From positions 1 to 64,000 of IMG/VR virus record IMGVR_UViG_3300016665_000824: 64,000 nt of DNA; one strand, written 5' to 3'. Positions 5,637 to 64,000 of this stretch are shown in pieces (position 1 is the stretch's first letter; each line of letters begins with the position of its first letter). Source of the DNA: a virus. The translations under genes and the position numbers were made by a program. Under the pieces are notes generated by a model. That model worked only from the letters and a program-made list of their open reading frames with translations. It was not told where the DNA came from and did not search any database.

Positions 5637-5670
5637 AAAGCCACTGACTTCATATGGAAACAGTGGCTTT
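5637..5670 (+). terminator. hairpin (10-bp stem) followed by T-rich tract
   Basis: AAAGCCACTG ... CAGTGGCTTT then cttgtgc, downstream of ORF ending 5569. Confidence 0.5.
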
Positions 5671-5705
5671 CTTGTGCAAACAAATATTTACAGGAGAAAT
5701 CTATC

Positions 5706-5960: not shown

Positions 5961-6166
5961 TCGCCACCATGTCAGATCGCGCCGCCCTCTTGGTTGGCGA
6001 TGTCTCCGACAGAGTCCTAAGTCAACTTCGACTCTACGGACTAGCGCCACAAGTCCAACAGGATTTGTGGGGATATAGACGCGAGTTTGTGGTAATATTG
6101 AACGATTCAGATCGGAAAGCCGCCTTTGCGATCGCCTGCAATAATCTCAAAATCCAAGTCAAATAA
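5954..6166 (+). CDS. hypothetical protein
   Basis: ORF overlapping previous stop by 7 nt. Confidence 0.5.
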   Translation: MVVATMSDRAALLVGDVSDRVLSQLRLYGLAPQVQQDLWGYRREFVVILNDSDRKAAFAIACNNLKIQVK

Positions 6167-6171
6167 TCAAT

Positions 6172-6204
6172 CGCCAAAGATCGCGGTCTAGGCAATCTTT
6201 GGCG
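6172..6204 (+). terminator. 10-bp stem hairpin after ORF 5954-6166
   Basis: CGCCAAAGAT ... ATCTTTGGCG; no U-tract. Confidence 0.3.
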
Positions 6205-6226
6205 CGTCCACATACCTGCAAAGAAT

Positions 6227-6478
6227 ATGAAGAACAGCATTAATTATTACATGAGTGAGGTCACAGCACCTCCTGAGATTGAAAGCTTAATGAGGGGCTT
6301 GGATCTCTATGATTTATCCGAGTTGATCCGATCCTTAGCCGAGGCGATCGCTACAAAGTATTTTGAGTTGCACAACAGAAACCTGTCTTACTCACCCGAA
6401 ATCGCTGACTGGCTTCGAGTTCAATCCTGCGACACATGGGTTCGGGTATTGCGCTGGCTAGCAATGGAGGTGATTTAG
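6227..6478 (+). CDS. hypothetical protein
   Basis: 83-codon ORF. Confidence 0.5.
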   Translation: MKNSINYYMSEVTAPPEIESLMRGLDLYDLSELIRSLAEAIATKYFELHNRNLSYSPEIADWLRVQSCDTWVRVLRWLAMEVI

Positions 6479-36472: not shown

Positions 36473-36715
36473 TTAGGAAGCCTTGAGACCCTCCAATACG
36501 ATCTGAGATTCTTCGAGCATCTGACGATCGCCTGTTCGCTGGCAGATATAAAAATAGCTGTCAGCATCATAATCATATAAACGCCGCTTGATCGTATAAG
36601 ACTTATTGGCGTACAAAATCCTTGTTCCTAGTTGGTATTTGGGAATTCCAATCGCGTAGCTTGCACTTTTTGCTGTCATATTGTGTTCGTGGGGATATCG
36701 CCACAAATCTACCAC
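36473..36715 (-). CDS. hypothetical small protein (80 aa; 68 aa if ATG 36679 is used)
   Basis: GTG start lies inside the CCACAAA motif pair; internal ATG may be the real start. Confidence 0.45.
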   Translation of the reverse strand: MVDLWRYPHEHNMTAKSASYAIGIPKYQLGTRILYANKSYTIKRRLYDYDADSYFYICQRTGDRQMLEESQIVLEGLKAS

Positions 36716-36718
36716 AAA
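36701..36718. promoter_or_regulatory. CCACAAA-N4-CCACAAA direct-repeat motif (operator candidate)
   Basis: same architecture at 59935-59952 and, reverse-complemented, at 63679-63696. Confidence 0.5.
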
Positions 36719-37321: not shown

Positions 37322-37351
37322 GGTAACAAGGACTTGAGTCCTTGTTACCTT
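37320..37351. terminator. bidirectional terminator hairpin (14-bp stem) between convergent moron and tape-measure genes
   Basis: AAGGTAACAAGGAC ttga GTCCTTGTTACCTT; both stop codons lie in or at the stem. Confidence 0.65.
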
Positions 37352-40300
37352 ACTCCGCTAGTAACACCCGCTACTCGTCTCAAGACATTATTAAGCGTGT
37401 CATTAACAGCCTTCTGGACATCATTGCCCACACCCGCCGCAGAACTAATGTTGCTTTGAGTATTGATAGCGATCGGGGCATTAACCGTAATATTTCCACT
37501 TGTACCCAGAGCCGCACCCGTAGGATTGCCCTGTTGCTGAGGAACAAGATCTTTACCGCCAAGACTACCGAAAGCCTGCGCCAATGCCTCCGCTCTTTGA
37601 AGTTGTCCTTCGTCAAGCAAGGCGATCGGCTTGTCGAGTTTCTTCTGGGCTTCCTCAAATGCCTTGTCGTCGATCTTCAATGTCACGGGGTTCTCGGAGA
37701 TTTGCTTCGACACACGGTTAAATTCCGCTTCCAGTCCTGCGGTTAAATCTTTAACCTTGAGATCTGGGGCAACCAACACCTTGGAGAAGCCTTCATCGAT
37801 TTGCTGAGTTAACTTGTCGAACGAAGACGCGATCGCCTGTTCTGGCTTTGCTTCCTCCGTAGGTTTGCCACCGTACTTAGCGTTAAGCTCCTCAAACGAG
37901 TTGGCTTGAGCAGGATACTTCTTGTTAAGCTCCTCAAAGCTGCCTGCCATGCCCTTGTCGGGATATTTCTTGGCTAACTCCTCAAAGCTAGTAGCGAACG
38001 GTGCGTTATCAGGCTTTGGTTCGGGTGCAGCCGTAAATACTCCGCCCTGCTCAACCTGCCCAAGCAATGCCGAGGTGGGGTTCTTAAACGAAGCACCGCG
38101 AACATTAACAGGTTGGCTTGCCGCAGCCACAGCATTACTTACATCCGTGGTAGTCAATGCTGCTGTACCCGTATTTTGAGTTAAGCGAGCAAGCTGCTCT
38201 CGTTGTAGGCGCTCTTGCAGCGCAGGATCTCTAGTTGCGCCAATAACATCGCCGATCGCCGTATTAGTTTCGCCTTGCTGTTTATTGGCAAGAGCTTGAC
38301 GATCATTCTTGTTGACAATCTCGTTAACCTTGGCTTCGTCGGCAATGAAACCCTTTTCTTGCTGCAATCCACCCAATTCAAGAAAGTTCTTCTCCTGTCC
38401 AAGCTTGGCTTGAGCAAGTTTAAGCTTCGCCTCTTCGGACTGGGGACGTAGTTTAACCTCCAACTCGGCGGCTTTGATAGCAGCATCCTGTGAGGCAATG
38501 TCCACCTTCTTCTTGGCGATCGCGATTTCATTTTCGACCTTCTTGCGTTCAAGCAATAGGTCACGCTTCTGGATTTCCCGCTCCAAGGACTCGGCTTCAA
38601 ACTTTTGCTGTTGCTTGAGGGAATTAAGCTTAAGAACGGCAAGTTTTTCCGCAAGAATCAGCTTTTTCTCTTCGAGTTCGAGATCGGCAAAGTTGCCCTG
38701 ACCACCTGCGGCACGGATGGCAGCTTGTTGGCGATCGTAGATCTTGTTGAGAGCAGCAAACTCTGACTCGCGTAATGCCACTGTAGACTGGGCAAGTTTA
38801 TTTGCCGACTCGGATAGGCGGCTTTGATTCTCAAGCCCCTTTTCTAGTGCGGTGAATAATAGTTTTTGACGTTCAAGCTTGAGGTTTTGCTGCTCAATCG
38901 TGACCGCATACTTTTGTGATTCCAAGACTAGGCGATCGCGCACTGCGGAAACTAATCCTTCAATCGCCGCGAGTTCGGCTTCAGCGAGCTGTTTGGATAG
39001 TTCAGCAACCTTGATTAGATTAGCGTTCTTAGTTTCCTTGCTAACACCAACGCCCTTCTTCTCAAGATCGGCGATCGCCTTCTGCTTTTGTTGTTCGAGT
39101 TGCAGCTCTAAAGTGATACTGCGTTTACGTTCGGCAGTTTCTTGAAGCTTAATTTCAGATTCAAGCTTAATTCCCGACTTGCGGAGTTGAGCTATCTGAG
39201 CAAGACGCTGAGTCTCGCCAACCTTTTCGGCGGCAAGGGTCTCCTTAATCTGTGCATCCAATCCCTTAACAAAGCGCTCGGAACGGGCTTTGGCTATTTT
39301 TGCCTCAGCGTCCTTCCGTTTGTTGTCGGCATCCTCTTCTAATCGCGCTTTCTGGGCGGCGGTAGCCTTAACTAGATCAAGCTCTTTTTTGTTTGCGTCA
39401 GCAATAGAGTTTTTCGCCAAGTTTTGACGTTCGGCATCTGGCTTTGCGATTGAGGAAAGTTGATCCCTCTTTGTCTGCAACGTCCGAAGTTCAGACTCTT
39501 TCTTGGCGATCGCGTCCTGTTCCGCCTTGATCTGTGCGGTGTACTCCGAGGAATTAAAAAATGGCGCGTCTTTTACGGTGTTGAATCGCTGTAATGTCTC
39601 CGCATTCCCAGCTTTCAGACTAGACAAGGCTTTTTCCCCATCTTCAATCTGCTTCGTAATTCCCTCTAGCTGTCCCTGAGTATCCTCTGACAACTTTAAG
39701 GTGCTATCCAAGGTTCCTTTCTGGCTCTGGAGGCTATTAAGTCTTGATTGCAACACAGCAAGCTCGTCCGTTACTTTCTTAACGTCCTCGGCAGCGTTAT
39801 CTCCCGCAACACCCGTACTTATAGACTCTTGGAGAGCCTTCTTCCTTGCCTCTGCATCTTTGATCTGTTGACTGGTATCGTCGATCTTTCCTTGCAAGAC
39901 AGGAGCTTGAGCTTCCCTGACCTGCCGTATCTTTGAAGGATCTCCAGTTGCAGCAGCTAACTGCGCTTCCGCCAACTCGCGATCGCGCTTAATCTGTTGT
40001 TTCTGCTCATTAGCGTTGGTCTCCAAGATCTGCTGTCTTGCTCTTAGAGCCTTTTGATCGGCTTCAGACTGGGCTTGAATCTTCTTCTCCTCTAATTGTC
40101 CAGAGAGGGCGATCGATTCAGACTCAGAGATTCGCCCCGTGGCGAGCAAAGCTTGAATCTGGGAAAGTTGAGCGTCATAAATAGCTATGCGGCGATCCGC
40201 CTCCTTTTTGTACGCGGCAGTAATCGCTTCTTGAGCCTTTATCTGTAAATCGCGATCGGCAGAGACATTCGTAGCTACTTTTTGAAACGCTCCCGCAACT

Positions 40301-43300
40301 TCGTCTGCACGGAGAATCCCTGCATCTTGAAGGGCGTTAGCCGTTTCAAGCAACTCGCCCAACTTCGCCTTAAATAGCGCAGGATCTCCCGCAGACTTGT
40401 TTAAAGCGTCAAGGGCTGCATTATATTTTGAAGTTGCCTGCTCGATCGCATTACCAATACGAGGAAGATCAATAGCCTGAATTTGCAGGTTTACCGACTT
40501 GTAGGATTCTTGAAGTTTTCTAAGGGCTTCAAGTTCTCGATCTCTTTCTGCGTCTAAACCTTCTACAGCTTGAACCTGATTAATGATTGCCTCGATATTG
40601 TTGTTTCTTTCGGCGATCTCCTTCTTCTTATTCTCGATCTGAATATCAAAACGCGCAGCACCATCTTTGTCGCTTAGCGCTTCCGCCTTGGACTTTTCCT
40701 GCTCTAATTTAATTAAATCCTCTTGGAGTTTCTTCTGAGCAGACAGTCCTATTCCTAGATCAACCCGCCGAGAAGCTGACTGATTTAAGACGTTTTTATT
40801 ATCTTGCAATCTTATTTGGACGGCTTTCTCTTCAAGATTTCCTGCGCGATCGCCTAGACCTAACTTGTCGGAAGCGCCAAACGTTACCGTTCTTAGCCCC
40901 TCTCTTGCCGCGTCACCTGTAAGAGCAAAACCTTCTGTAACGCGAGTACCAATATTGTCTCTCTCTTTTTTAACCTTCTCCCTCAACGCGTCTTCGGAGT
41001 TGGTTGGTTTGCTTTGTAATCCCCTCAACTCTTTGAGTTTTGCGAGCTGTTGATCATACAGCTTTAAAGTGGGGTCATCTTGGAGGATGCTCTTGTCTTG
41101 GATTGAGGCAACATATTTTTCGCGTTCTGAGGTTAGGTTTGCTAGCTCAGAAGCGGCATCCTTTCCTTGCGATTTGTTTAGGATCGCAACCCTTGCGTCA
41201 CTATCTTTGAGCGCATCGTTGAGTTTGTCTACATTGGCTGTAGCTGCTTTTGTTTCCTGATCGACGTAGCCAACCAAGGTTGTTATTGCGGCGAAAGCTG
41301 CGCTTAACAATAATGTAGGACCAATTTCTGCGGCGAGGGCGGCGAAGGATTTGCTGATACCTTTGACATTCTCGGAAATAAACGAGGTAGCGCCTACAGC
41401 ACCCTTTTTGAGGTTTGAATAAAGTCCACCGACACTAACGTTCGCGTTTTGAGTGAAATCAGCAAAGCTAGACTTAGCTCGCGAGCCAAAATCTTTGACA
41501 CCAGAAAGAGCATCTTGGAAACCTGTCTTTAACCCAGCACCTAAATTTTTGAGGCTTAAATCGGGGAGAGAAATAGACTTGACTTGATTGACAAACTTAT
41601 CTATAGCGATACGAGAATTAGCCAAAGAAGCGGGAATATTTAGCTCTCTAAAGAACTTATCGAGTCCCAGTCTCGCGTTTGCAAGAGAGGTAGGGACGTT
41701 GATCTGGGAAAATGCTTTTTCAACCCCGTTGCGGAGGTTTACCAGCGAGGCAGGAATGTTGATATTTGCAAAGGCGTTCCGAATGCTAGCTTTAGTATTC
41801 TCAATTTGCGCGGGGAGATTTGCAAAGATACCAGTTTTTTGACTCGAATCCTGACTGAACCTTCCCTTAATGTCAGATATAAAACTACCAATAGAGTCGC
41901 CCAAGGACTTCAAAGAAGTTTTTGTCTTTGTGGCGATCGCTCCAATATCTTCTGCGAACTGTTTTGTGAACGGGACGGGAATTGGATTGGCAATAATCTG
42001 ACTTCGGAGCGACTTGATTCTGTCGGTAGTCTCCTGATAACTTTTAAGAGCCGCCGCACGAGCTTCGGGGGTTAACGACAGATCTGTAGAGTCTTTTTGG
42101 CTCACGATCGCCTGCTGTTTTAGTCCAGAGACCTCTCGTTTAGCGGCGACAACCTGAGTAGGATTTAGAGTCGTTGACTGAACTGGCTTGCCCCCAAGTA
42201 TTTCTCGAACACTATCGTTTAGCTTCTTGATGCGCCCAAAGGTTTCGCCAATACTGGCTCCAGCACCGCTAATTCCCGTGTTAATTGTCTTAAATACATT
42301 GGAGATTGTGCCACCAAACAGCTTGGTAACAGCGATCGCGATTAGCAATCCGCCAACTACTTTTTGAAAAGGATTGGAGTTCTCGCCAAAAGTAAAGAAC
42401 GGCAATATCGTGTCTGCAACCACCTTAATTACTGGTGCTAATACCGACCCTACCGTATCCGCAAACTTACGAATAGCTGCGGTTACATCCTGAATGATTT
42501 TTTGTAGACCTTTGTTCTTCAGGATTAACTGATCGAAGAAGACAAAACCAACAAATGTTCCAGCACCCAACAAGGCTGTTGATACGGCAAAAGACCTTGC
42601 CGCAGCTCCTGCCGCTTTTAATGAATTAGAGAAGATGCTGTTTACTTTCTCGGTATTTGTAGCGACATCGGCAAACTTGCCCAAGCTCTTGGCTGCGTCC
42701 GCAATCAACGGGCTAAACGAGCCAAATAGTTGGGACTTACCAACAATGCCTGAGAAAGCTGTTAAGGCGATCGGCGCTGCCTTCGTAAATCCTTGCAGTG
42801 CGGTTCCTAGCGCAGGAAATGCTTGAGTAAGTCCAATCAGTTTTACCCCAAAGCCACCTAGTGTTGGCAAAGCGGCAGTTATAACTCCCGCGAATGGCGA
42901 GAACGCACCGAGAACTTTGCCCAACTCTTTTTGGACTAAGCCAGCAGCACCAGGGATCTTGTTTAGATTCTCCGCCAACAACAGGAATCCAGCAGACCCT
43001 CGACCGACAACCGAACTTAAATTAGCAAAAGTGTTGACAACCCCGTTAGTACGCTTGTCAAGCAGGAAGAGAACTTCTCCCAAACCTGGTACAAGATTAA
43101 ACATCAACGAGAAGCCTTTGTTTAATGCCCCGATCGCGCCCGAAAGAACTTTTGCGCCGACGGAGATGCCGATCCAAATCCCTCCAAGAGGACCTACAAC
43201 ACCTGCAATTTGTTCAAACACATTAATAGCTGGCTGAACAACAGCAAGAGTAAGGCTCATCGCATCGGAAAAAGCCTTTACTGCGCCAGCGAGAGACTTG

Positions 43301-45780
43301 AATAGGTATTCTGGAACCTGCCCAAAGATCTGGAAGAATGGCCCCGCGAGACTTTTTAGGGTCGCAATCACGTTCTTGAATACGTCAAACAGTATTCCTG
43401 CGAGACTCCCTACTTGAGCAGCGATCGCGTCTTTATTCTTTGAGAAATACTGGTAAAACCCGTCAAGTTCCGCTACTAAAGGTGCGAGGAATTTCTCCCC
43501 AGCGAGTCTGCCGATCTCATCAACTAGCTCTTGAATATTGCTAACAATCCCACCCACGGACTGAGCAGCTAGCTTGTTTCCAGACTTAAATGCTTCTAAT
43601 CGACCTAAAAGCTCTTTGACGAAGGTTCCTTGAGACTTCCACTTAGCCACCATCTCATTGTTGAGGTTAAGCGATTTGGCAAGAGCTGAGTTTTGGTCAA
43701 TAGTTCCCGAAGTTATACTAACAACCTCTTGACGGGCTTGATATAAAGGTATGCCAAGCGTTCCGAGTGCGGCGGCGAACGAGGTTGTAATATTAGCAGC
43801 GTCATTCAAGGACGCGCCAATGTTGCTTGCCTGCCCAGCAACGATCTGAAAAACCCCGACAAGATCTTTACTGGTTACGCCGACCAGCTCTAACGAGTCT
43901 TTACGAATTTTATCGATCGCCCCTTCAACCGCAGGGCCAACCGCCTTGATCGCTTGAGTTGGATCTGATACGCGATCGCCATTAACTACGATTCTATTGG
44001 TTGCCGCTAAGCTCGCCTGAGTAGAGAGTAGTTGCTCTTGGAGCCTGATGTTTTGCCCAATCAACAGATCGAAAGGGCCGTTTTGTACAAATCCTTGGAG
44101 TGCCTGCAATCCCAATCCCAAGAAAGCAAGTCTCTGAGATACTTCAAAGATCGCGTTGGTTGCCTTGCCAGCACCTTCGCTAATTAGATTGAATACTTCT
44201 AGTGGTTCCGTCGCCCCCGCCACTGGAGCAACCACTGCGGCGGCAATATCTACAGGTTCTTGCAGCTTCGGGGCTATCTCTTGAGTCTTTTGAAACCCCT
44301 TAACGATAACATCATCAACACTATCGATGACAGTACCGACTTCGGCAAGGATTGTTGATCTCAGTCCATCAACAAAATTCTTACCTGCGATCGCGCCAGT
44401 ATCTTTTAAAAGCGAACTAAATGTTCCGCCAAAAAACTCGTCAATCTTGGTTGCAAGTTTTTGCAGTGAGCCATCCCCGCTTCCGATAGAATCAATCGCC
44501 GCGCCCAACCCTCCGTCAATAGCATCGACAGCTTTTAGGGCTAAATTCCTGAGAGGCGCAAGGATGCTAGTATCTTCTACGCTAAACAAGCTATTGAGAG
44601 CCTGTCCAACGCCTCCCTTTTGAGTCTCTATTAAAGGGCGGAGGATGGCAAAAGCGGATCTTAAATCCTCTGGAATTGCTTTTTCTAGTCCATTAAATAA
44701 CTGTCCAGACAACGCATTTCCAAAATCTTGCAACTCATTAGAGGCAACAATCGACCCCAAATTTGCCACCCCGATCTTGTTGGCAATCAGTTTTGCTAGT
44801 GGTGGTAGTGGCAACTTATCTACAAGCTGAGGGATTCGCCCCGCTAGGCGGTTGATCAGCTCAGATACAGAGCCGCCTAACTGTTCGTCAAGAATTTTAA
44901 ATTGATCGGTCGCCTCAGATCTGCTGCCGACGATTGCCCTGCCGACCGATCCTCCTAAAGCGCTAGATAAGCGCCCTACAACTCTTTGTCCGTCCTCAAC
45001 GTTTGGCGCGATTGCGTTAACGGCAAAAGCTTTAGCAGCACCCGATACCGACCCACCAGCCAACTGCTTCGACACTTCCGACAGCAATCCAGTTTTTGCC
45101 GCAGTCCGAAATGAGTTGGCGACAATTGAGGTTAAATCCGCCCCGAAAGCTTGGTTAACAATACCTTTTAAAGCGTCGGGGAGTCCTCCCCCAACAACGC
45201 CCGAAATGAGTGAGTCGGCGATCGCGTTATCTAGCGTTCCAGTAAAAGCCTCAACTCCCACTCCAAGCTTGCGCTGAATTTCTTGATTTAGCTTTGAAGC
45301 CCTAACATTTGCTTCTAACGCTTTACCGAAACTGTTTGCAGAATCGCTAAGTATCTGCGTAATTCTCTTGCCGTTATCCGAAAATATTGCAGACTGAGCT
45401 TGCTCTGCCGACTGCTTAGATAAGAATCCTCCTCCGACATCTTTTCCTGCAGAGGTAATCCCCTTGATTACCTTTGAGAGCGGAGCTAGTTTTGAAACTG
45501 CACTGTCGGCGACATTCGAGATCTGTTCTAAAAATATTTTGCCCGACTGCGTATCTAGTACATCTCGAACCGACTGAATTGCGTCTCTCAGCCCTCCAAA
45601 CGTGCCAATCGCGGTTGCCCCTACCGTGCTGATCGTTCCGCCAAGGGCTTGTACAGATCCCTTTGTTACGTCCGCAACAACACCAACACTTTTTAGACCA
45701 GCAGCTATCTCCGAAACTTGTTTGCTTGCTTGATCTTTCGCCTGTATTAAGATCTCAACAATATTGGTTTGCGGAGCCAT
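37345..45780 (-). CDS. tape measure protein (2811 aa)
   Basis: giant ORF with Gly/Ala-rich hydrophobic N-terminal half and ~1000-aa coiled-coil (Q/E/K/A-rich) half, upstream of baseplate/fibre genes. Confidence 0.75.
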   Translation of the reverse strand: MAPQTNIVEILIQAKDQASKQVSEIAAGLKSVGVVADVTKGSVQALGGTISTVGATAIGTFGGLRDAIQSVRDVLDTQSGKIFLEQISNVADSAVSKLAPLSKVIKGITSAGKDVGGGFLSKQSAEQAQSAIFSDNGKRITQILSDSANSFGKALEANVRASKLNQEIQRKLGVGVEAFTGTLDNAIADSLISGVVGGGLPDALKGIVNQAFGADLTSIVANSFRTAAKTGLLSEVSKQLAGGSVSGAAKAFAVNAIAPNVEDGQRVVGRLSSALGGSVGRAIVGSRSEATDQFKILDEQLGGSVSELINRLAGRIPQLVDKLPLPPLAKLIANKIGVANLGSIVASNELQDFGNALSGQLFNGLEKAIPEDLRSAFAILRPLIETQKGGVGQALNSLFSVEDTSILAPLRNLALKAVDAIDGGLGAAIDSIGSGDGSLQKLATKIDEFFGGTFSSLLKDTGAIAGKNFVDGLRSTILAEVGTVIDSVDDVIVKGFQKTQEIAPKLQEPVDIAAAVVAPVAGATEPLEVFNLISEGAGKATNAIFEVSQRLAFLGLGLQALQGFVQNGPFDLLIGQNIRLQEQLLSTQASLAATNRIVVNGDRVSDPTQAIKAVGPAVEGAIDKIRKDSLELVGVTSKDLVGVFQIVAGQASNIGASLNDAANITTSFAAALGTLGIPLYQARQEVVSITSGTIDQNSALAKSLNLNNEMVAKWKSQGTFVKELLGRLEAFKSGNKLAAQSVGGIVSNIQELVDEIGRLAGEKFLAPLVAELDGFYQYFSKNKDAIAAQVGSLAGILFDVFKNVIATLKSLAGPFFQIFGQVPEYLFKSLAGAVKAFSDAMSLTLAVVQPAINVFEQIAGVVGPLGGIWIGISVGAKVLSGAIGALNKGFSLMFNLVPGLGEVLFLLDKRTNGVVNTFANLSSVVGRGSAGFLLLAENLNKIPGAAGLVQKELGKVLGAFSPFAGVITAALPTLGGFGVKLIGLTQAFPALGTALQGFTKAAPIALTAFSGIVGKSQLFGSFSPLIADAAKSLGKFADVATNTEKVNSIFSNSLKAAGAAARSFAVSTALLGAGTFVGFVFFDQLILKNKGLQKIIQDVTAAIRKFADTVGSVLAPVIKVVADTILPFFTFGENSNPFQKVVGGLLIAIAVTKLFGGTISNVFKTINTGISGAGASIGETFGRIKKLNDSVREILGGKPVQSTTLNPTQVVAAKREVSGLKQQAIVSQKDSTDLSLTPEARAAALKSYQETTDRIKSLRSQIIANPIPVPFTKQFAEDIGAIATKTKTSLKSLGDSIGSFISDIKGRFSQDSSQKTGIFANLPAQIENTKASIRNAFANINIPASLVNLRNGVEKAFSQINVPTSLANARLGLDKFFRELNIPASLANSRIAIDKFVNQVKSISLPDLSLKNLGAGLKTGFQDALSGVKDFGSRAKSSFADFTQNANVSVGGLYSNLKKGAVGATSFISENVKGISKSFAALAAEIGPTLLLSAAFAAITTLVGYVDQETKAATANVDKLNDALKDSDARVAILNKSQGKDAASELANLTSEREKYVASIQDKSILQDDPTLKLYDQQLAKLKELRGLQSKPTNSEDALREKVKKERDNIGTRVTEGFALTGDAAREGLRTVTFGASDKLGLGDRAGNLEEKAVQIRLQDNKNVLNQSASRRVDLGIGLSAQKKLQEDLIKLEQEKSKAEALSDKDGAARFDIQIENKKKEIAERNNNIEAIINQVQAVEGLDAERDRELEALRKLQESYKSVNLQIQAIDLPRIGNAIEQATSKYNAALDALNKSAGDPALFKAKLGELLETANALQDAGILRADEVAGAFQKVATNVSADRDLQIKAQEAITAAYKKEADRRIAIYDAQLSQIQALLATGRISESESIALSGQLEEKKIQAQSEADQKALRARQQILETNANEQKQQIKRDRELAEAQLAAATGDPSKIRQVREAQAPVLQGKIDDTSQQIKDAEARKKALQESISTGVAGDNAAEDVKKVTDELAVLQSRLNSLQSQKGTLDSTLKLSEDTQGQLEGITKQIEDGEKALSSLKAGNAETLQRFNTVKDAPFFNSSEYTAQIKAEQDAIAKKESELRTLQTKRDQLSSIAKPDAERQNLAKNSIADANKKELDLVKATAAQKARLEEDADNKRKDAEAKIAKARSERFVKGLDAQIKETLAAEKVGETQRLAQIAQLRKSGIKLESEIKLQETAERKRSITLELQLEQQKQKAIADLEKKGVGVSKETKNANLIKVAELSKQLAEAELAAIEGLVSAVRDRLVLESQKYAVTIEQQNLKLERQKLLFTALEKGLENQSRLSESANKLAQSTVALRESEFAALNKIYDRQQAAIRAAGGQGNFADLELEEKKLILAEKLAVLKLNSLKQQQKFEAESLEREIQKRDLLLERKKVENEIAIAKKKVDIASQDAAIKAAELEVKLRPQSEEAKLKLAQAKLGQEKNFLELGGLQQEKGFIADEAKVNEIVNKNDRQALANKQQGETNTAIGDVIGATRDPALQERLQREQLARLTQNTGTAALTTTDVSNAVAAASQPVNVRGASFKNPTSALLGQVEQGGVFTAAPEPKPDNAPFATSFEELAKKYPDKGMAGSFEELNKKYPAQANSFEELNAKYGGKPTEEAKPEQAIASSFDKLTQQIDEGFSKVLVAPDLKVKDLTAGLEAEFNRVSKQISENPVTLKIDDKAFEEAQKKLDKPIALLDEGQLQRAEALAQAFGSLGGKDLVPQQQGNPTGAALGTSGNITVNAPIAINTQSNISSAAGVGNDVQKAVNDTLNNVLRRVAGVTSGVR
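37840..37995 (-). repeat. three tandem ~45-nt repeats encoding SFEEL-x-KKYP inside the tape measure gene
   Basis: GCTCCTCAAA recurs three times on + strand; protein repeats SFEELAKKYP / SFEELNKKYP / SFEELNAKYG. Confidence 0.6.
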
Positions 45781-54875: not shown

Positions 54876-54902
54876 ATCGCTATTGTTTGATGCTCACAAG
54901 CA

Positions 54903-54939
54903 AACAGGCGATCGCTTGATGAATTAGCGATCGCCTGTT
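54903..54939 (-). terminator. 13-bp perfect stem hairpin built from two HIP1 sites (intra-operon attenuator candidate)
   Basis: AACAGGCGATCGC ttgatgaatta GCGATCGCCTGTT. Confidence 0.45.
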
Positions 54940-54968
54940 AGATCTCCTTGTACACATGGCACATGAGG

Positions 54969-59827: not shown

Positions 59828-59934
59828 TGGCTAATTCAACTTAGGTCAATGGCATTACTTTCTTGTTTTGTCAAGATGAATATTCGGTTTTATGGAAATT
59901 AGCGATCGCTTTTCTTTAAATACGCTCAATACCG

Positions 59935-59952
59935 CCACAAATCCACCACAAA
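59935..59952. promoter_or_regulatory. CCACAAA-N4-CCACAAA motif in divergent control region
   Basis: CCACAAATCCACCACAAA between the virion operon start (59827) and + strand regulator (59991). Confidence 0.5.
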
Positions 59953-59990
59953 GCCACGTTTCAATGCGAAAATCCGAGTAGAGTTACCAG

Positions 59991-60554
59991 TTGAATATGG
60001 CAGTAAAAAGTAAAGTCAAGCTCGGCGCGTATATCGGGCGAAGGCTGGAGCAGGAACGTACCGATGCCGATTACGGTCAGCAAGAAGTCATTAATGAGAT
60101 CCACAGAATAACGTCATCCCCAGAAGTTATTGCTGCGCTAGAGATATCTGTCGCCGCAAACCTAACCAAGTTTCGAGAGTTTCGAGGCAAACGCCAGAAA
60201 GATTTAGCCGCAGATCTAAACAACTTGCGCGATACCTTGCATGGCGTAGGTATAGATACTGAAGTGTCTGGCGATGTGTCTTGGATGTCTAAGGTTGAGA
60301 ATAGCGATCGCATCATGCAGGCGGTCGAACTACGACTCTTTAGCCTTGCTTTGGGTGTTCCGATGGAGGCATTTTTCCCTAATGAGTTAAACGTACTAGC
60401 AGAAAGTAATGACCCGTTCGCCCCTTACCGATATCTGGGACGCAGTATCGAGGGTATTCAAAAGTATCGACATGTCAGCGATCGCAACAAAATTGCGATC
60501 GTTTATTGTTCAGAAGGGTTGTCTTTACCTGATGGTGTGGGGAAATATCTATGA
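59991..60554 (+). CDS. putative HTH (XRE-like) DNA-binding regulator (187 aa)
   Basis: divergent from virion operon; segment LTKFREFRGKRQKDLAADLNNLRDTL resembles an XRE-type helix-turn-helix; start TTG 59991 or ATG 59997. Confidence 0.5.
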   Translation: MNMAVKSKVKLGAYIGRRLEQERTDADYGQQEVINEIHRITSSPEVIAALEISVAANLTKFREFRGKRQKDLAADLNNLRDTLHGVGIDTEVSGDVSWMSKVENSDRIMQAVELRLFSLALGVPMEAFFPNELNVLAESNDPFAPYRYLGRSIEGIQKYRHVSDRNKIAIVYCSEGLSLPDGVGKYL

Positions 60555-60784
60555 GTGTTTATTCAAGCCCCGAATTCACTGGTACAATCATTCGAGAAAG
60601 CCATGAGAGTGGCGTTTTGCTAGTCACGGTCGTAGAGTTACCAGGGCTAGTCTTAGTGCTCAACTCCCATAGCGAAGAAGAAATCGTATTGCCCCAAGCT
60701 ATTAGATCGTATCTAAGTCTTGAGGAGCAATTGAAGATTAAGCGATCGCGACCCAAAGTCACAGCAGTAAAAATATCCATCTAA
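60551..60784 (+). CDS. HicB/UPF0150-like protein (77 aa)
   Basis: ATGA coupling to upstream gene; ...GVLLVTVVELPGLVLVLNSHSEEEIVLPQAIRSYL matches the DLPGC...T.EEA...A...Y pattern of HicB-type domains. Confidence 0.55.
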   Translation: MSVYSSPEFTGTIIRESHESGVLLVTVVELPGLVLVLNSHSEEEIVLPQAIRSYLSLEEQLKIKRSRPKVTAVKISI

Positions 60785-60812: not shown

Positions 60813-62786
60813 ATGTCCTATGAAGCCCTGCCGTCGGGAAGCTTAGTCAAAGCTCCCATCGATCTGATCGAAACTCATCCACAGAACCCCGCCCCTACAT
60901 CACAGAGGTATAGCGAAATATTGGGGTATCCCGTCAGGGTTGAGGATGCTCAGGTCGAGTCCCTGATTGAACTACTAAGGGCGGAGGGCTACAACCCCAA
61001 TAAGCCTATGCTGCTCAGACCAGTTGGCGATCGCCTCCAAGCCGTTGAGGGCAACCACCGTTTTGTGGCAATGTGGATGCTCACCAAGGTACTCAGAGAG
61101 TTTGAACAGGACTATATTCCCGCGATCGTGGATGAAGATCTATCCGAAGAGGACGCTCTGATTAAGTTGAGTACTCTTAATACTCAGCGCAGGATGGAGG
61201 GTTGGCGGTTAGCTCGATTGGCTTACTACACTTGCGTTGAGAAAGGCATGTCTCAGCCTGAGTATGCGGCAAAGGTGGGATACGTCCTTGAGGGTGGAAA
61301 GCCAAATGGTCCACGGATTTCTAAGTTGATTCAAGCCTGTCGATTTGTTGACTATATTGCTGCCAACTCACCGATTGAAGAACTGCAAGACGTTGAGGCT
61401 TTAACCGAACCTAAGAACGGTTTGTTTAGGTCAGTTGATCGCGTCGTTGAGTTTATGTACCTCGACCAAGAGGACTGGTTATGGATTGCAGAGTTCTACC
61501 TCCGTCATCACATGCAGATCTCGGCAAAACAACGAGTCAACCTAGCCAAGGCGATCAAAGATACAAAGGATTTGCTCAACAGATCTACCTCGTATCCCGA
61601 TCGCTGGAGTCAATGGTTGCGCTGGGAGTATATACGCGGAGAGGTCGCTAGTCAGTGTGCGGCAAACGAGGAGTCCCAATTAGCCAAGAGTTTATTACCC
61701 CAACTAATTTCTGAGGCGAATAAAACCTACGAGTCGGACGACTTGCCATTCATTCACAACTATCACGAAGTTACTGGTAACAGGGTTGAAGAGAAAACTG
61801 CCAATCTCAAGGAGGAATTTCGTGCTGAGTTAATCAAGCAGATCGAAGGGCGTAGTGCCAAGTTTTACAGGCTTGTTGATGTTGCTGAAGCTGCGCGGAC
61901 TGTGATCGATCGCTATGCGTTTATCGATCAGAAGTACGAAAACTTCAAAAAGATCGAAAACACGGTACATATCGAGCAAGAGATTGTTGCGATCGCACCT
62001 CCGACGACCTCAAAGTCAAAATCTACGCCAACAACATCTACGCGATCGCCTGTTGCAGAAACAAAGCCCAAGCTTGATACCGAAAAGCGAGTGTGGATTG
62101 AGGAACAATATCAGCCAAAAGGCATGGTTTCTTCTCTAGAAGATTATGCTTTCCACGGCGGCAAACAGTACGGGCTGATATTCTCCCGTCTTGGCAATAG
62201 CGGCATGGAGGACTTCTTTCAAAATACCGACTATATCTATAGAACGCTTACCGAAGATGGAGTATTCGCACTGATATTGCCGCATAAATATTCCTTCGCG
62301 GTAATTGAGGAGCTTGAGTATAAGGTAGCTAACTCTAGTCGCTTACACCTTCGAGGGTTGGATGGCGGCATATATTCCGATGATGAAAAGCCGAGATTGG
62401 CGATCGCCGCATCAAACCGTACATTGATTCATCAAGAGTACGAAGAATTATTATTGTTCACCACTCAAGACGATACTCCTCTGCCATTGCGATCGCCTCT
62501 CCCTCGGATGGCGCTGGAGCCAGTTCACGATATTCTGACCGCTTTTGGCGACCTGAGCGAGCCGTTCTTAGATCCGTTCGCCTTCAGTGGTGAGGTCGTA
62601 GTCGCAGCAAAAAGTCTTGGGTATCGGTGCGACTATCTCGTACAGACTCCAAACCAGTTGGACTTGGTTACGCGCTGGTGCGATCGGACTGAGTTTCCTG
62701 AGAGTCTACTTAGATTTGCGGAAGAGTTTACTCATTTTGATGAGGCACTGTTTAGTGATCGAGCAACTACTCGTGCAAGATCCTGA
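60813..62786 (+). CDS. ParB-like N-terminal domain protein with C-terminal degenerate N6/N4 DNA methyltransferase-like motif (657 aa)
   Basis: N-terminus ...LLRPVGDRLQAVEGNHRFVAM (ParB/Srx-like); C-terminus FLDPFAFSGEVVVAAKSLGYR resembles MTase motif I with G to A/F changes; no clean DPPY. Confidence 0.6.
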   Translation: MSYEALPSGSLVKAPIDLIETHPQNPAPTSQRYSEILGYPVRVEDAQVESLIELLRAEGYNPNKPMLLRPVGDRLQAVEGNHRFVAMWMLTKVLREFEQDYIPAIVDEDLSEEDALIKLSTLNTQRRMEGWRLARLAYYTCVEKGMSQPEYAAKVGYVLEGGKPNGPRISKLIQACRFVDYIAANSPIEELQDVEALTEPKNGLFRSVDRVVEFMYLDQEDWLWIAEFYLRHHMQISAKQRVNLAKAIKDTKDLLNRSTSYPDRWSQWLRWEYIRGEVASQCAANEESQLAKSLLPQLISEANKTYESDDLPFIHNYHEVTGNRVEEKTANLKEEFRAELIKQIEGRSAKFYRLVDVAEAARTVIDRYAFIDQKYENFKKIENTVHIEQEIVAIAPPTTSKSKSTPTTSTRSPVAETKPKLDTEKRVWIEEQYQPKGMVSSLEDYAFHGGKQYGLIFSRLGNSGMEDFFQNTDYIYRTLTEDGVFALILPHKYSFAVIEELEYKVANSSRLHLRGLDGGIYSDDEKPRLAIAASNRTLIHQEYEELLLFTTQDDTPLPLRSPLPRMALEPVHDILTAFGDLSEPFLDPFAFSGEVVVAAKSLGYRCDYLVQTPNQLDLVTRWCDRTEFPESLLRFAEEFTHFDEALFSDRATTRARS

Positions 62787-62823
62787 TCGGTTAAGCGTGG
62801 GTAGCCACGACGCTTGTTCAAGG

Positions 62824-62862
62824 CAATAAAAAAGGAGTCCAATTGAGACTCCTTTTTTATTG
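62824..62862. terminator. bidirectional terminator (16-bp perfect stem with A6/T6 tracts) between convergent genes
   Basis: CAATAAAAAAGGAGTC caattga GACTCCTTTTTTATTG. Confidence 0.7.
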
Positions 62863-62869
62863 CTGTAGT

Positions 62870-63595
62870 TTAATCAAAGAATTTTCTAACCGCCGCTTCT
62901 ACATCCTTGTTTGGCATCGGGTAGCACCAAATCGGCATCATCCGACCATTGCAAATCCTTTCTTCTTGTTTGCCAAGAGCCTCGCAAGTAGCTTTGACAA
63001 ATTTTCCTAATGTGGTGCGGTTTTTAGCTGTTACGGGCAAACTCAAAGATTCAGCAATTTCTACGGCTCCCATCCACTTTGTCTCCGAGGCTGGAGCGAT
63101 CGCCTTGATAACAGCCATTGCGTCGTTGATCGCAACATCTACAAGCATTTGACATAAGCGAGGGTCGGAATCAGCAAGCATATCCTTGATCTCAAAGACT
63201 GACTTCGCTGTTTCGAGTGCTATTACACGAGAGGGCAATGCGGGAACAGGAGTGGGGGTAGTAGGCACTGATTGTAACAATGCCTTCGCCTTAGAGAAGG
63301 CTTCAACCAGATCGAGCTTGCTCTGAACAACGGCTACCGTGTTTCGGCTCAGGGTCATTAAAGCGGTCGCTTGGTCTTCGTTGAGTAGCGCAAATTTAGG
63401 AGGGTTCCCTGTCGCCTTTTCGGGGACTCCGATTTTAAATCGGATACCCGCGAACCTTGCTTCAATCATGTCTTGGTACTTCTTGATGTTCCGCATAAAG
63501 CTCTCGTGATCAATCCCAAGTCGCTCGGCAATCAGTCGAGAGTCAACAAGCAATTCGCCATCTTCATTGATGATTGGTACAATACTTTCGGACAT
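62870..63595 (-). CDS. phage regulatory protein, Rha/ORF6N-like (241 aa)
   Basis: N-terminus ...LLVDSRLIAERLGIDHESFMRNIKKYQDMIE... matches the Rha-type DNA-binding pattern. Confidence 0.6.
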   Translation of the reverse strand: MSESIVPIINEDGELLVDSRLIAERLGIDHESFMRNIKKYQDMIEARFAGIRFKIGVPEKATGNPPKFALLNEDQATALMTLSRNTVAVVQSKLDLVEAFSKAKALLQSVPTTPTPVPALPSRVIALETAKSVFEIKDMLADSDPRLCQMLVDVAINDAMAVIKAIAPASETKWMGAVEIAESLSLPVTAKNRTTLGKFVKATCEALGKQEERICNGRMMPIWCYPMPNKDVEAAVRKFFD

Positions 63596-63678: not shown

Positions 63679-63696
63679 CTTGTGGCGATTTTGTGG
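63679..63696. promoter_or_regulatory. TTGTGG-N4-TTTGTGG motif (reverse-complement form of the CCACAAA pair) upstream of the final partial gene
   Basis: CTTGTGGCGATTTTGTGG in the gap between the Rha-like gene and ORF starting 63727. Confidence 0.45.
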
Positions 63697-63726: not shown

Positions 63727-64000
63727 ATGTCTGAATACTATTTATACGGCGATCGCGAAGGTAATGCTCTTGATCGGTTAAAAGCTTCTCGCCCTCAGCT
63801 AATCAATAAGCTTTACTACTGGGCTGGCAAACGGCTTGACTATCGGGTTAAGCATTCGCTTATGGCGGAGCAGGATGTTTCCAAGCAGGTTGATCGATAT
63901 CTAGAGGCGATTGCATTTGCTTCGTCGGAAAAGGATCTGCTAAACACGCTCAACAGTTGGAACCTCCTGTCACCTCAAGAGAAGGCGATTATGGCAAAGC
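63727..64000 (+). CDS. hypothetical protein, 5' partial (runs off window end)
   Basis: ATG 63727, open frame to the window edge; absent from track because no stop codon. Confidence 0.4.
   Translation, partial: MSEYYLYGDREGNALDRLKASRPQLINKLYYWAGKRLDYRVKHSLMAEQDVSKQVDRYLEAIAFASSEKDLLNTLNSWNLLSPQEKAIMAK

What the first reader, a model, noticed from the sequence alone, without database searches (positions are those of the whole stretch)
60813..62786. ParB-like domain fused to a methyltransferase-like C-terminus with degenerate catalytic motifs
The N-terminus carries a ParB/Srx-type signature (...AVEGNHRFVAM...). The C-terminus has FLDPFAFSGEVVVAAKSLGYR, which resembles motif I (DPFxGSG) of N6/N4 DNA methyltransferases but with the first Gly replaced, and I find no clean DPPY-type motif (closest is ILPHKYS). 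This may be an inactivated methyltransferase scaffold repurposed for DNA binding or regulation, or an unusual active variant.
Basis: partly seen in the sequence, partly recalled or inferred. Interest (0 to 1): 0.55.

Follow-up and report, generated by a model that had tools for sequence, protein, structure and literature searches.

The report
ParB fused to dead DNA methyltransferase
A cyanobacterial virus carries a strongly conserved gene in which a ParB-type DNA-binding protein is fused to a DNA-methyltransferase domain that has lost its catalytic residues, so the old enzyme fold now appears to serve a structural or regulatory role.

Summary
Residues 1-250 are a Spo0J/Noc-type ParB N-domain plus HTH DNA-binding domain (family profile vs 1vz0, E=6e-21). 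Residues 425-635 have a beta-class N6A/N4C DNA-methyltransferase fold (AF2 pLDDT 83; all 42 significant PDB fold hits are beta-class MTases).

Motif IV is not 'ILPHKYS'. It is the loop after strand YGLIF, where DPPY has become SRLGN. Motif I FxGxG is FAFSG, the motif II acidic residue is Val610, and the insert before the HPTQKP loop is deleted.

Cyanobacterial relatives with the same architecture keep DPPY/FxGxG and hit PF01555. Catalysis was lost at least three times in the family. The dead domain is under purifying selection as strong as the ParB domain (dN/dS about 0.04), while its former catalytic loop varies freely. ParB nucleotide-pocket residues are also eroded.

The gene ends a conserved three-gene operon at a fixed position in the head module of a HIP1-rich cyanophage lineage.

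Best reading: a non-catalytic ParB-type DNA-binding or regulatory protein whose pseudo-MTase replaces the ParB dimerisation domain. The identity is well supported; the mechanism is inferred. It is a new variant of the known ParB-MTase fusions.

The parts
60813..62786 (+). ParB-pseudo-methyltransferase gene, 657 aa
   Evidence: ORF; conserved homologs and synteny; dN/dS 0.02-0.05 overall.
60813..61202 (+). ParB N-terminal (NTP-binding fold) domain, aa 1-130. Box I is H22-PQNPA27 (60876-60893); Box II is G80-N-H-R83 (61050-61061); Box III is L122-N-T-Q-R126.
   Evidence: Spo0J 1vz0 E=0.002 for the single sequence; family profile E=5.8e-21, Noc 1.7e-19. Motif columns against canonical ParBs: Box I Arg becomes Ala; Box II GERR becomes GNHR.
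61203..61562 (+). ParB-type HTH DNA-binding domain, aa 131-250 (GMSQPEYAAKVG...PRISKLIQ, through the EDWLW helices)
   Evidence: The family profile aligns continuously with Spo0J residues 22-211 and Noc. Relative P0020 hits PF17762 HTH_ParB.
61563..61997 (+). Family-specific helical middle region, aa 251-395 (RW..WLRWE, NLKEEF motifs)
   Evidence: Shared with distant relatives in the HMMER profile matches. 20 residues are invariant across the two syntenic clades. No known family matches.
61998..62084 (+). Fast-evolving low-complexity linker, aa 396-424
   Evidence: dN/dS 0.13-0.78 against about 0.04 in the flanking domains; only one residue is invariant across clades.
62085..62717 (+). Catalytically degenerate beta-class DNA methyltransferase domain, aa 425-635
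   Evidence: AF2 pLDDT 83.2, pTM 0.81. Foldseek vs PDB: 42 hits at E<=1e-3, all beta-class N6A/N4C MTases. The viral structure library gives the same answer. hhalign 93% to intact relatives. dN/dS 0.036-0.047.
62169..62198 (+). Motif IV position: Y453-GLIFSRLGN462. Strand beta4 is followed by the former DPPY loop, now SRLGN.
   Evidence: The family alignment places it in the column of TDPPY/ADPPY/IDPPY in P0011, P0013, P0028 and P0039. The strand is residues 453-459 in the model. The loop is not conserved between clades: SRLGN, SRIDA, TNISS, TRITM, TRIST.
62565..62597 (+). Motif I remnant F585-LDPFAFSGEV595 (FxGxG becomes F-A-F-S-G)
   Evidence: Aligned with LDPFAGTGTT / LDCFMGSGTT of intact relatives and with MboIIA. 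L586, D587, P588, F589 and G593 are invariant across both clades.
62628..62642 (+). Strand beta2, C606-DYLV610. The motif II acidic residue is replaced by Val610.
   Evidence: The column holds E in all intact relatives and V in the window and P0008 clades. The strand is residues 606-610 in the model.
62718..62786 (+). Window-specific 22-aa C-terminal tail, created by an insertion of about 109 bp at the gene's 3' end
   Evidence: Absent from all homologs. The DNA alignment shows the insertion between the last shared codons and the shared terminator. Low pLDDT.
59991..60554 (+). First gene of the operon, 185-187 aa (probable start ATG 59997), with weak XRE-type HTH similarity
   Evidence: Conserved upstream of the ParB gene in every related locus, including the 28%-identity clade. 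Pfam HTH_31 E=0.055; C.BclI E=0.013. Neither is significant.
60551..60784 (+). Second gene of the operon, 77 aa, function unknown (ELPG...LPQAI..YL motif)
   Evidence: Overlaps the stop of the previous gene. Conserved in both clades. No family or PDB match.
59828..59990 (.). Conserved divergent intergenic region between the DUF2213 scaffold/protease gene (-) and the operon (+). It contains TTGTGG-N5-TTGTGG (59935-59951, - strand) and one HIP1 copy.
   Evidence: Highly conserved across 7 phages although coding dS is saturated. The element occurs 3 times in the window against 0.02 expected and is conserved in 12 of 18 loci.
62823..62863 (.). Hairpin with a perfect 17-bp stem between the convergent ParB-pseudoMTase (+) and Rha-like (-) genes; probable bidirectional terminator
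   Evidence: I9. Present with compensatory stem changes in L001 and L006.

Best explanation
The protein is a catalytically dead descendant of the phage-enriched ParB-DNA-methyltransferase fusions.

SHOWN. The N-terminal 250 residues are a Spo0J/Noc-type ParB N-domain plus its HTH DNA-binding domain. Residues 425-635 keep the beta-class amino-MTase fold. In that domain the DPPY catalytic loop has become SRLGN, the first glycine of FxGxG has become Phe, the motif II acidic residue has become Val, and the insert that intact relatives carry before the HPTQKP loop is missing. The domain is nevertheless under purifying selection as strong as the ParB domain.

INFERRED. The protein no longer methylates DNA. 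It acts as a non-enzymatic DNA-binding or regulatory protein. The ParB HTH contacts phage DNA. The pseudo-MTase takes the place of the missing ParB C-terminal dimerisation domain, because beta-class MTases are obligate dimers, and it may also grip DNA or other proteins. The protein works with the two small co-transcribed proteins, most plausibly in controlling the flanking virion-gene operons or in organising phage DNA. Because Box I and Box II residues of the ParB nucleotide pocket are eroded, and the key Box II arginine is lost altogether in the syntenic sister clade, the shared function probably does not need a canonical CTP switch.

Sub-confidences: domain identity about 0.9; loss of methyltransferase catalysis about 0.85; selectively maintained non-catalytic role about 0.9; the specific 'dimerising ParB-type regulator/DNA organiser' mechanism about 0.35.
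For: ParB NTD+HTH. MTase fold. Sequence homology to intact relatives: hhalign 93%, E=3e-7; a profile of degenerate members only hits M1.HpyAVI at 2.5e-9, MboIIA 3.7e-6, CcrM 3.5e-5. Motif states. Intact relatives hit PF01555 at 54-93 bits while the window clade has no hit. Purifying selection: pseudo-MTase dN/dS 0.036-0.047 against 0.028-0.044 for ParB_N and 0.13-0.78 for the linker. Across two clades at 28% identity, the pseudo-MTase keeps 29 invariant residues including LDPF..G, while the ex-catalytic loop is unconserved. At least 3 independent losses of catalysis in the family show that a non-catalytic role is repeatedly sufficient. The three-gene operon keeps the same position in the head module in both clades. 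No ParB C-terminal dimerisation domain is present, whereas beta-class MTases are generally dimers, and eroded-motif paralogs (METTL14 EPPL, MTA9 NALW) act as non-catalytic nucleic-acid-binding partners (PMC7544214). No intact MTase is encoded in the window. A conserved promoter-like element lies in the divergent region next to the operon.
Against: No binding site, dimer or regulatory effect has been demonstrated. No conserved parS-like palindrome was found; the only internal palindrome is not conserved at synonymous sites. The invariant LDPF..G remnant could mean that some ligand is still bound. The family alignment behind the confident AF2 model included four intact MTase relatives, which favours that fold; independent sequence evidence does agree. 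The full-length model was uninformative, so inter-domain geometry is unknown. The C-domain is acidic (pI 4.8), although intact relatives are equally acidic. The gene's position inside a virion module fits a packaged protein equally well.
Confidence: 0.5

Rival explanations
1. A virion-packaged or early-acting anti-defence protein, similar to P1 Dar proteins or polyvalent proteins. It would be assembled into the head and delivered with the DNA. The ParB and pseudo-MTase domains would coat the DNA or act as a decoy for host restriction, BREX or methylation-sensing systems, without any methylation.
For: The gene lies between Mu-G/Mu-F/portal and the scaffold/capsid genes. ParB-domain proteins occur among late genes, and P1 DdrB is packaged into heads (PMC5512222). 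ParB-N6N4 MTase fusions are phage-enriched and were suggested to act in anti-defence (PMC12704722). Related head modules carry Tad2-like or Acb2/Tad1-like genes, and the adjacent slot holds BstA_C-type genes.
Against: The operon runs opposite to the surrounding virion genes and has its own conserved promoter region and terminator, so it is a separate transcription unit. The ParB domain is the Spo0J/Noc type with an HTH, not the DdrB-like type. There is no MuF or peptidase fusion. Core-gene-like conservation at dN/dS 0.04 is not typical of arms-race genes. PADLOC gives nothing, though that library holds defence models, not anti-defence ones.
Confidence: 0.15
2. A ParB/Srx-type nuclease or nickase. 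The ParB domain would cut or nick DNA and the dead MTase domain would serve only as the DNA-binding or targeting module.
For: The ParB domain of the Bacillus cereus ParB-methylase Bce_0392 was reported to nick DNA non-specifically, and other ParB/Srx domains are NTP-regulated DNases (PMC5512222). Box II keeps G80 and R83, and Box III keeps N123 and R126.
Against: The acidic Box II residue is lost (GERR becomes GNHR), the Box I Arg is lost, and the syntenic sister clade has GHHT with no Arg. The pocket is therefore eroding rather than conserved. The domain resembles segregation-type ParB/Noc with a full HTH.
Confidence: 0.1
3. A non-catalytic partner or inhibitor of a host beta-class DNA methyltransferase, similar to METTL14 or MTA9. 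The pseudo-MTase would heterodimerise with an active enzyme, and the ParB module would redirect or block its activity on phage or host DNA.
For: Beta-class MTases work as dimers with a division of labour, and eroded-motif subunits partner with active ones (PMC7544214). More distant fold hits include MTA1c and METTL3-14 complexes. The phage genome is saturated with HIP1, which contains the GATC and CGATCG targets of cyanobacterial orphan MTases (PMC4390886).
Against: No candidate partner MTase is encoded in the window. No host genome is available. Nothing indicates that the cyanobacterial HIP1 methylases are beta-class. The idea is entirely by analogy.
Confidence: 0.1
4. Still an active methyltransferase, or another SAM-dependent enzyme, that uses unconventional catalytic residues.
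For: The motif I remnant L586-D-P-F589...G593 is invariant across deeply diverged clades, and it includes the Phe that stacks on the SAM adenine in CcrM. The fold is intact.
Against: Four determinants are lost together: DPPY becomes SRLGN, the first Gly of FxGxG becomes Phe, the motif II Glu becomes Val, and the insert before HPTQKP is deleted. The former catalytic loop is not conserved even among orthologs (SRLGN, SRIDA, TNISS, TRITM, TRIST), which is incompatible with a conserved active site at that position.
Confidence: 0.05

Closest known systems
ParB-CTPase-fold / N6_N4 DNA methyltransferase fusion proteins of phages and prophages (PF02195 + PF01555), as surveyed in PMC12704722. Biochemically studied examples such as B. 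cereus Bce_0392 'ParB-methylase' are cited in PMC5512222.
   Same: Same overall architecture and demonstrable common ancestry. Relatives P0011, P0013 and P0028 share the ParB NTD, HTH and middle region and carry a PF01555 domain with DPPY and FxGxG. The phage association is also shared.
   Different: All catalytic and SAM-binding signature residues are lost. No Pfam model detects either domain in the window protein, so domain-based surveys would miss it. There is a long family-specific middle region. The gene behaves as a conserved core gene of a cyanophage lineage, with two small operon partners.
Canonical chromosomal or plasmid ParB/Spo0J and Noc (CTP-dependent DNA sliding clamps)
   Same: The N-terminal domain and HTH DNA-binding domain are collinear with Spo0J 1vz0 and Noc 7nfu. 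The Box II Gly and last Arg, and the Box III Asn and Arg, are retained in the window clade.
   Different: There is no C-terminal dimerisation domain; a pseudo-MTase sits in its place. No adjacent ParA and no parS-like palindrome were found. The Box I Arg and the Box II Glu and first Arg are replaced, and the sister clade lacks the Box II Arg entirely.
Beta-class amino DNA methyltransferases with solved structures (M1.HpyAVI 5hek, CcrM 6pbd, M.BceJIV 8urk, M.RsrI 1eg2, M.MboIIA 1g60)
   Same: Same fold and the same order of motif IV before motif I. The LDPF part of motif I and the following AAK..G helix are recognisable.
   Different: Motif IV, the first Gly of motif I and the motif II acidic residue are absent. 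The segment before the HPTQKP-equivalent loop is shortened. Sequence identity is only 10-13%.
Catalytically eroded beta-class paralogs that act as non-catalytic subunits (METTL14 with EPPL, ciliate MTA9 with NALW; PMC7544214)
   Same: A beta-class fold with an eroded motif IV that is retained under selection for a non-catalytic role.
   Different: Those are separate subunits with a known active partner. Here the dead domain is fused to a ParB module, and no active partner is known or encoded nearby. The resemblance is by analogy and does not imply close relationship.

Membership tests
ParB/Spo0J superfamily (ParB-CTPase fold) | Sequence or profile similarity of the N-terminal domain to ParB_N | tested here: met
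   1vz0 at E=0.002 for the single sequence. Family profile at E=5.8e-21, plus Noc and ParB hits. Relatives hit PF02195 at up to 54 bits. The window protein itself is below Pfam detection.
ParB/Spo0J superfamily (ParB-CTPase fold) | Adjacent ParB-type HTH DNA-binding domain | tested here: met
   Profile positions 13-210 align with Spo0J residues 22-211. Relative P0020 hits PF17762.
ParB/Spo0J superfamily (ParB-CTPase fold) | Box II P-motif GxRR with the arginine needed for NTP binding, and the Box I arginine | tested here: inconclusive
   The window has G80-N-H-R83, so the last Arg is kept while the Glu and first Arg are replaced. The Box I Arg is replaced by Ala27. The syntenic P0008 clade has GHHT. 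PMC12704722 reports that substituting the conserved P-motif arginine by alanine abolishes NTP binding.
ParB/Spo0J superfamily (ParB-CTPase fold) | C-terminal dimerisation domain, ParA partner and parS site (segregation-type ParB) | tested here: not met
   The C-terminus is an MTase-like fold. The neighbours are a 187-aa HTH-like protein, a 77-aa protein and a Rha-like protein, with no ParA. No conserved palindrome was found. The rest of the genome was not scanned for ParA.
ParB/Spo0J superfamily (ParB-CTPase fold) | NTP binding and hydrolysis | not testable with these tools
   Needs DRaCALA or ITC. PMC12704722 states that neither sequence nor AlphaFold3 predicts nucleotide specificity.
Beta-class N6A/N4C DNA methyltransferases (PF01555) | Rossmann-like MTase fold with motif IV before motif I | tested here: met
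   AF2 pLDDT 83. All 42 Foldseek PDB hits at E<=1e-3 are beta-class MTases. Motif remnants are in the order IV then I.
Beta-class N6A/N4C DNA methyltransferases (PF01555) | Motif IV (D/N/S)-P-P-(Y/F/W) | tested here: not met
   The aligned column reads S-R-L-G-N. No such tetrapeptide exists in this ORF or in any window ORF of 80 aa or more.
Beta-class N6A/N4C DNA methyltransferases (PF01555) | Motif I FxGxG (SAM binding) | tested here: not met
   F589-A-F591-S-G593: the first Gly is replaced by Phe, invariant in the clade.
Beta-class N6A/N4C DNA methyltransferases (PF01555) | Motif II acidic residue at the end of strand beta2 | tested here: not met
   Val610 where all intact relatives have Glu.
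Beta-class N6A/N4C DNA methyltransferases (PF01555) | Score above the Pfam gathering threshold | tested here: not met
   No hit even at E<=10 for the isolated C-domain. Intact relatives score 54-93 bits.
Beta-class N6A/N4C DNA methyltransferases (PF01555) | SAM binding and methyl transfer | not testable with these tools
   Needs biochemistry or methylome data.
DdrB-like ParB domains of polyvalent, virion-delivered proteins (PMC5512222) | DdrB-type ParB domain, usually fused to MPTase, MuF or other effector domains, located among late genes | tested here: inconclusive
   The late-gene location is met. However, the ParB domain matches the Spo0J/Noc type with an HTH, and no peptidase or MuF fusion is present. 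It was not compared directly with a DdrB profile.
Non-catalytic beta-class partner subunits (METTL14/MTA9 type) | An eroded motif IV together with an active paralogous partner subunit | tested here: inconclusive
   The eroded motif is met. No active partner is encoded in the window. The host genome is unknown.

The most novel reading that the evidence does not exclude
Both enzyme-derived halves are pseudo-enzymes: a ParB fold with an eroded nucleotide pocket and a dead beta-class MTase. Together they would form a new kind of nucleotide-independent ParB-type DNA clamp or regulator, in which a pseudo-MTase dimer replaces the ParB C-terminal dimerisation domain. This protein would control the late (virion) operons of a cyanophage lineage through the conserved TTGTGG-N5-TTGTGG promoter elements. 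Alternatively, the dead MTase could pair with a host methylase acting on the HIP1 sites that saturate the phage genome.
Probability: 0.15. Interest if true: 0.7.

Novelty: new variant of a known kind. Interest (0 to 1): 0.45.

Why it matters
ParB-methyltransferase fusions are among the most common ParB-fold architectures in phages, yet their biology is unknown. This family offers a natural experiment. The same ParB platform carries intact MTase domains in some cyanobacterial members and dead ones in others. Catalysis was lost at least three times, and the dead domain stayed under strong constraint. That argues the ParB-MTase scaffold has a function beyond methylation, and it gives matched active and inactive pairs with which to test this. 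It also shows that Pfam-based surveys miss such members entirely, so the architecture is probably undercounted. Finally, it identifies a conserved three-gene module, with an adjacent conserved promoter element, in a poorly known group of cyanophages.

Tried and rejected
- **Family libraries.** Pfam, NCBIfam, PHROGs and PADLOC on the whole protein and on thirds gave no usable hit, only phrog_3694 (unknown function) at E=8e-4.
- **Full-length AF2** with the 7 close homologs gave pLDDT 42.6 and was unusable.
- **tblastn against cultured phages** found no match.
- **GTDB genome scan** found no relative.
- **Word-index homolog search with the broad alignment** did not recover distant relatives.
- **P0009, an apparent C-domain-only protein,** was dismissed because it sits on a 1.4-kb contig.
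- **Charge/pI test** for DNA binding by the pseudo-MTase was uninformative, because intact and dead domains are equally acidic.
- **Profiles of the two operon partners against PDB** gave nothing significant.
- **A HicB-like reading of the 77-aa protein** rests on visual resemblance only and has no statistical support.
- **parS-like site.** The inverted repeats near the gene are mostly HIP1 copies. The internal palindrome at 61155-61190 is not conserved at synonymous sites and was rejected.
- **Catalytic partner MTase in the window.** No amino-MTase motif IV, no C5 motif pair and no hit to an HMM of intact relatives.
- **Pfam on ten early-region ORFs,** run to infer lifestyle, was blank.
- **'Decaying pseudogene'** was rejected because dN/dS is about 0.04 at dS up to >2.
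Full report
**1. Observation**

The ORF 60813..62786 (+) encodes 657 aa. It is a genuine gene. Six clusters of full-length homologs (64-95% identity) were found among 5.8 billion proteins, and more on viral contigs. Pairwise dN/dS over residues 36-635 is 0.02-0.05, with dS from 0.6 to above 2.

**2. The N-terminal half is a full ParB NTD plus HTH**

- The single sequence matches T. thermophilus Spo0J (1vz0) at E=0.002 over residues 46-158.
- An exhaustive HMMER search of 1.84 billion cluster representatives found 38 relatives.
- A profile of 21 family members, none with an intact DPPY motif, matches Spo0J at E=5.8e-21 over profile positions 13-210 (Spo0J residues 22-211). It also matches Noc (1.7e-19) and several other ParBs.

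The similarity therefore covers both the nucleotide-binding N-domain and the HTH DNA-binding domain, up to about residue 250.

An alignment with four canonical ParBs shows erosion of the nucleotide pocket:

| Motif | Canonical ParB | Cyanobacterial relatives | Window clade | Syntenic P0008 clade |
|---|---|---|---|---|
| Box I | NPxQPR | HPLNPR | HPQNPA (Arg replaced by Ala27) | DPINPA |
| Box II | GERR | GHHR | G80-N-H-R83 | GHHT |

The Box II arginine that the P0008 clade lacks is the conserved P-motif arginine whose substitution by alanine abolishes NTP binding (PMC12704722). Nucleotide binding by the window protein cannot be decided from sequence.

**3. The C-terminal domain is a beta-class DNA methyltransferase fold**

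- A profile of the window clade's C-domain had only one sub-threshold PDB hit, M.MboIIA at E=0.66, exactly at motif I.
- Distant relatives share the ParB and middle regions. P0010, P0011, P0013 and P0016 hit PF01555 N6_N4_Mtase at 44-93 bits.
- hhalign of the window-type C-domains (9 sequences) against four intact relatives gives 93% probability, E=3e-7, over 144 columns.
- The family profile without intact members hits M1.HpyAVI (2.5e-9), MboIIA (3.7e-6), CcrM (3.5e-5) and M.BceJIV (5e-5).
- With a 21-sequence family alignment, AlphaFold2 models residues 425-657 at pLDDT 83.2, pTM 0.81.
- Foldseek against the PDB returns 42 hits at E<=1e-3, all beta-class N6-adenine or N4-cytosine DNA MTases or type III Mod subunits. 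The viral structure library gives the same picture, including one ParB/Srx-MTase fusion.

One caveat: four of the 21 alignment rows are intact MTases, which favours this fold. The sequence evidence is independent of that.

**4. State of the motifs**

| Feature | Intact relatives (P0011, P0013, P0028, P0039) | Window protein |
|---|---|---|
| Motif IV | (T/A/I)DPPY | S458-R-L-G-N462, directly after strand Y453-GLIF |
| Loop before motif I | H(P/D)TQKP | PLPRMA |
| Motif I | FAG(T/S)GTT | F589-A-F-S-G-E-V (first Gly replaced by Phe591) |
| End of strand beta2 (motif II) | Glu | Val610 |

The 20-35-residue insert that intact relatives carry before the HPTQKP loop is absent; in class beta enzymes the target-recognition region lies between motifs IV and I (PMC7544214). 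The insert after DPPY is also absent. By every sequence criterion that defines an amino-MTase (PMC7544214), the domain is catalytically dead.

**5. The dead domain is maintained by selection, but its active site is not**

- Window against L001 (95% amino-acid identity, dS 0.6-0.9): dN/dS is 0.036 for the pseudo-MTase, 0.028 for ParB_N and 0.133 for the linker. Other unsaturated pairs give 0.037-0.047 for the pseudo-MTase.
- Across the window clade and the P0008 clade (about 28% identity), 29 pseudo-MTase residues (14%) are invariant, the same density as in ParB_N (15%). They include L586-D-P-F589, G593, K600, G603, C606 and V610.
- The former catalytic loop differs freely between orthologs: SRLGN, SRIDA, TNISS, TRITM, TRIST.

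**6. Family history**

A bootstrapped neighbour-joining tree of the ParB region, rooted on canonical ParBs, shows:

- The family is monophyletic (bootstrap 98).
- One subclade holds only members with intact MTase modules of several kinds: beta-class, permuted, and MT-A70.
- The window and P0008 clades are sisters (68) inside an all-dead clade (86).
- A second all-dead clade (99) lies inside a 100%-supported group that also contains intact P0010, P0011 and P0013 mixed with other dead members.

Assuming no regain, that requires at least three independent losses. This is a distance tree and should be redone with maximum likelihood. One intact member, P0013, is from the cyanobacterium Brasilonema octagenarum (MBW4628207.1).

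**7. Genomic setting**

The window is phage DNA. The genes to the left encode a DUF2213/Pa193_gp24 scaffold-protease-like protein and a PF09950 major capsid protein. In related contigs, Mu-G-, Mu-F- and portal-like genes lie to the right. The capsid is closest, at about 33% identity, to phages of Aphanizomenon and Planktothrix.

The octamer GCGATCGC (HIP1) occurs 135 times against 1.24 expected. HIP1 is a hallmark of cyanobacterial genomes (PMC4390886, PMC5861425), so the host is very probably a HIP1-rich cyanobacterium.

The gene is the last of a three-gene plus-strand unit: a 185-187-aa protein with weak XRE-HTH similarity, a 77-aa protein, and the ParB-pseudoMTase. The unit is transcribed divergently from the scaffold gene and ends in a hairpin with a perfect 17-bp stem. 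It occupies the same position in every related contig, including the 28%-identity clade. In L018 a TnpB element is inserted between the 185-aa gene and a shortened 51-aa middle ORF. The slot just downstream is variable and holds Rha, Bro-N, KilA-N-BstA_C, LAGLIDADG, HNH or TnpB genes, or nothing.

The window encodes no amino-MTase motif IV, no C5-MTase motif pair and nothing matching an HMM of the intact relatives.

**8. Mechanism (inference)**

Canonical ParB proteins consist of an NTD, an HTH and a C-terminal dimerisation domain. Here the first two are present and the third is replaced by a beta-class MTase fold. Beta-class MTases characteristically act as dimers, and eroded-motif paralogs (METTL14, MTA9) are known as non-catalytic nucleic-acid-binding subunits (PMC7544214).

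I therefore propose that the pseudo-MTase supplies dimerisation, and possibly DNA or protein contacts, for a ParB-type DNA-binding protein. That protein would act with its two small operon partners on phage DNA, most plausibly in regulating the flanking virion operons or in organising DNA.

A possible target lies next door. A tandem TTGTGG-N5-TTGTGG element occurs three times in the window against 0.02 expected, each copy just upstream of a gene and oriented with it. One copy lies in the conserved divergent region beside the operon. Nothing yet links the protein to that element.

The rivals are a virion-delivered anti-defence protein, a ParB-type nickase, a partner or inhibitor of a host MTase, and an unconventional active enzyme. 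They are listed with their evidence in the rival-explanations section.

**9. Comparison with known systems, and novelty**

ParB-fold/N6_N4-MTase fusions are a recognised, phage-enriched architecture of unknown function (PMC12704722). An active ParB-methylase whose ParB domain nicks DNA has been described (cited in PMC5512222). A literature search for 'ParB' together with 'inactive methyltransferase' found nothing.

The protein is not a member of PF01555 in the functional sense, because four defining features were tested and not met, although it clearly descends from that family. I classify it as a new variant of a known kind: a selectively maintained pseudo-MTase version of the ParB-MTase fusion, probably with a degenerate ParB nucleotide pocket as well, fixed as a core gene of a cyanophage lineage. 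It is of moderate interest. The identity is secure, the function is open, and the family offers natural active and inactive pairs for experiments.

Noticed in passing
window 1-64000 (e.g. 59902, 60304, 61027, 61989, 62400, 63626): The HIP1 octamer GCGATCGC occurs 135 times against 1.24 expected, about one per 474 bp, spread over the whole window. This is a hallmark of cyanobacterial genomes, so the phage genome appears to share its host's oligonucleotide bias. HIP1 contains the GATC and CGATCG targets of cyanobacterial orphan methylases (PMC4390886).
   Followed up: partly
window 36701-36717 (-), 59935-59951 (-), 63680-63696 (+): A tandem element TTGTGG-N5-TTGTGG occurs 3 times against 0.02 expected. 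Each copy lies 23-108 nt upstream of a gene start and is oriented with that gene, and each is followed by a -10-like TATT/GATAT. The copy upstream of the DUF2213 gene is exactly conserved in 12 of 18 related loci. It is a candidate phage-specific promoter or activator site.
   Followed up: partly
window 62718-62822: An insertion of about 109 bp, specific to this window, replaces the last two codons and stop of the gene and adds a 22-aa tail. The shared terminator hairpin resumes after it, and its stem shows compensatory changes among phages.
   Followed up: yes
window 62870-63595 (-); L001:11944-12639; L006:9925-10668; L009:6930-8190; L017:9982-11218; L018:1384-2610 and 5182-6420: The slot downstream of the operon is a hotspot. 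Different phages carry Rha-, Bro-N- or KilA-N-type genes (some with a BstA_C domain), a LAGLIDADG or HNH endonuclease, TnpB/IS605 elements, or nothing.
   Followed up: partly
L001:3887-4135; L006:647-967: Head modules of related phages carry small genes that hit Tad2-like (PF11195) or Acb2/Tad1-hairpin (PF24729) anti-defence families. The corresponding gap in the window (54876-54968) looks too short to hold one.
   Followed up: no
window 62658-62700: Synonymous sites are unusually conserved over about 10 codons near the 3' end of the gene (TGGTGCGATCGGACTGAGTTTCC, containing a HIP1-like core). 50-62% of third positions are invariant there against 13% gene-wide, which is of borderline significance.
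   Followed up: partly
P0008, P0051-P0055 (L017:8001-9917; L018:2867-4867): The syntenic sister clade has GHHT in place of the Box II GxxR, so it lacks the arginine considered essential for NTP binding in the ParB fold.
   Followed up: partly
window 3453-24551 (+ strand ORFs): Ten of the largest plus-strand ORFs in the left (presumably early) half of the window have no Pfam match at all. This part of the phage is functionally dark.
   Followed up: no
window 37345-45780 (-): A single 2811-aa ORF lies on the minus strand within the structural region. It was not examined.
   Followed up: no
window 63728-64000 (+): A plus-strand ORF starts at ATG 63728, directly downstream of one TTGTGG-N5-TTGTGG element, and runs off the end of the window, so the ORF listing does not report it.
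   Followed up: no
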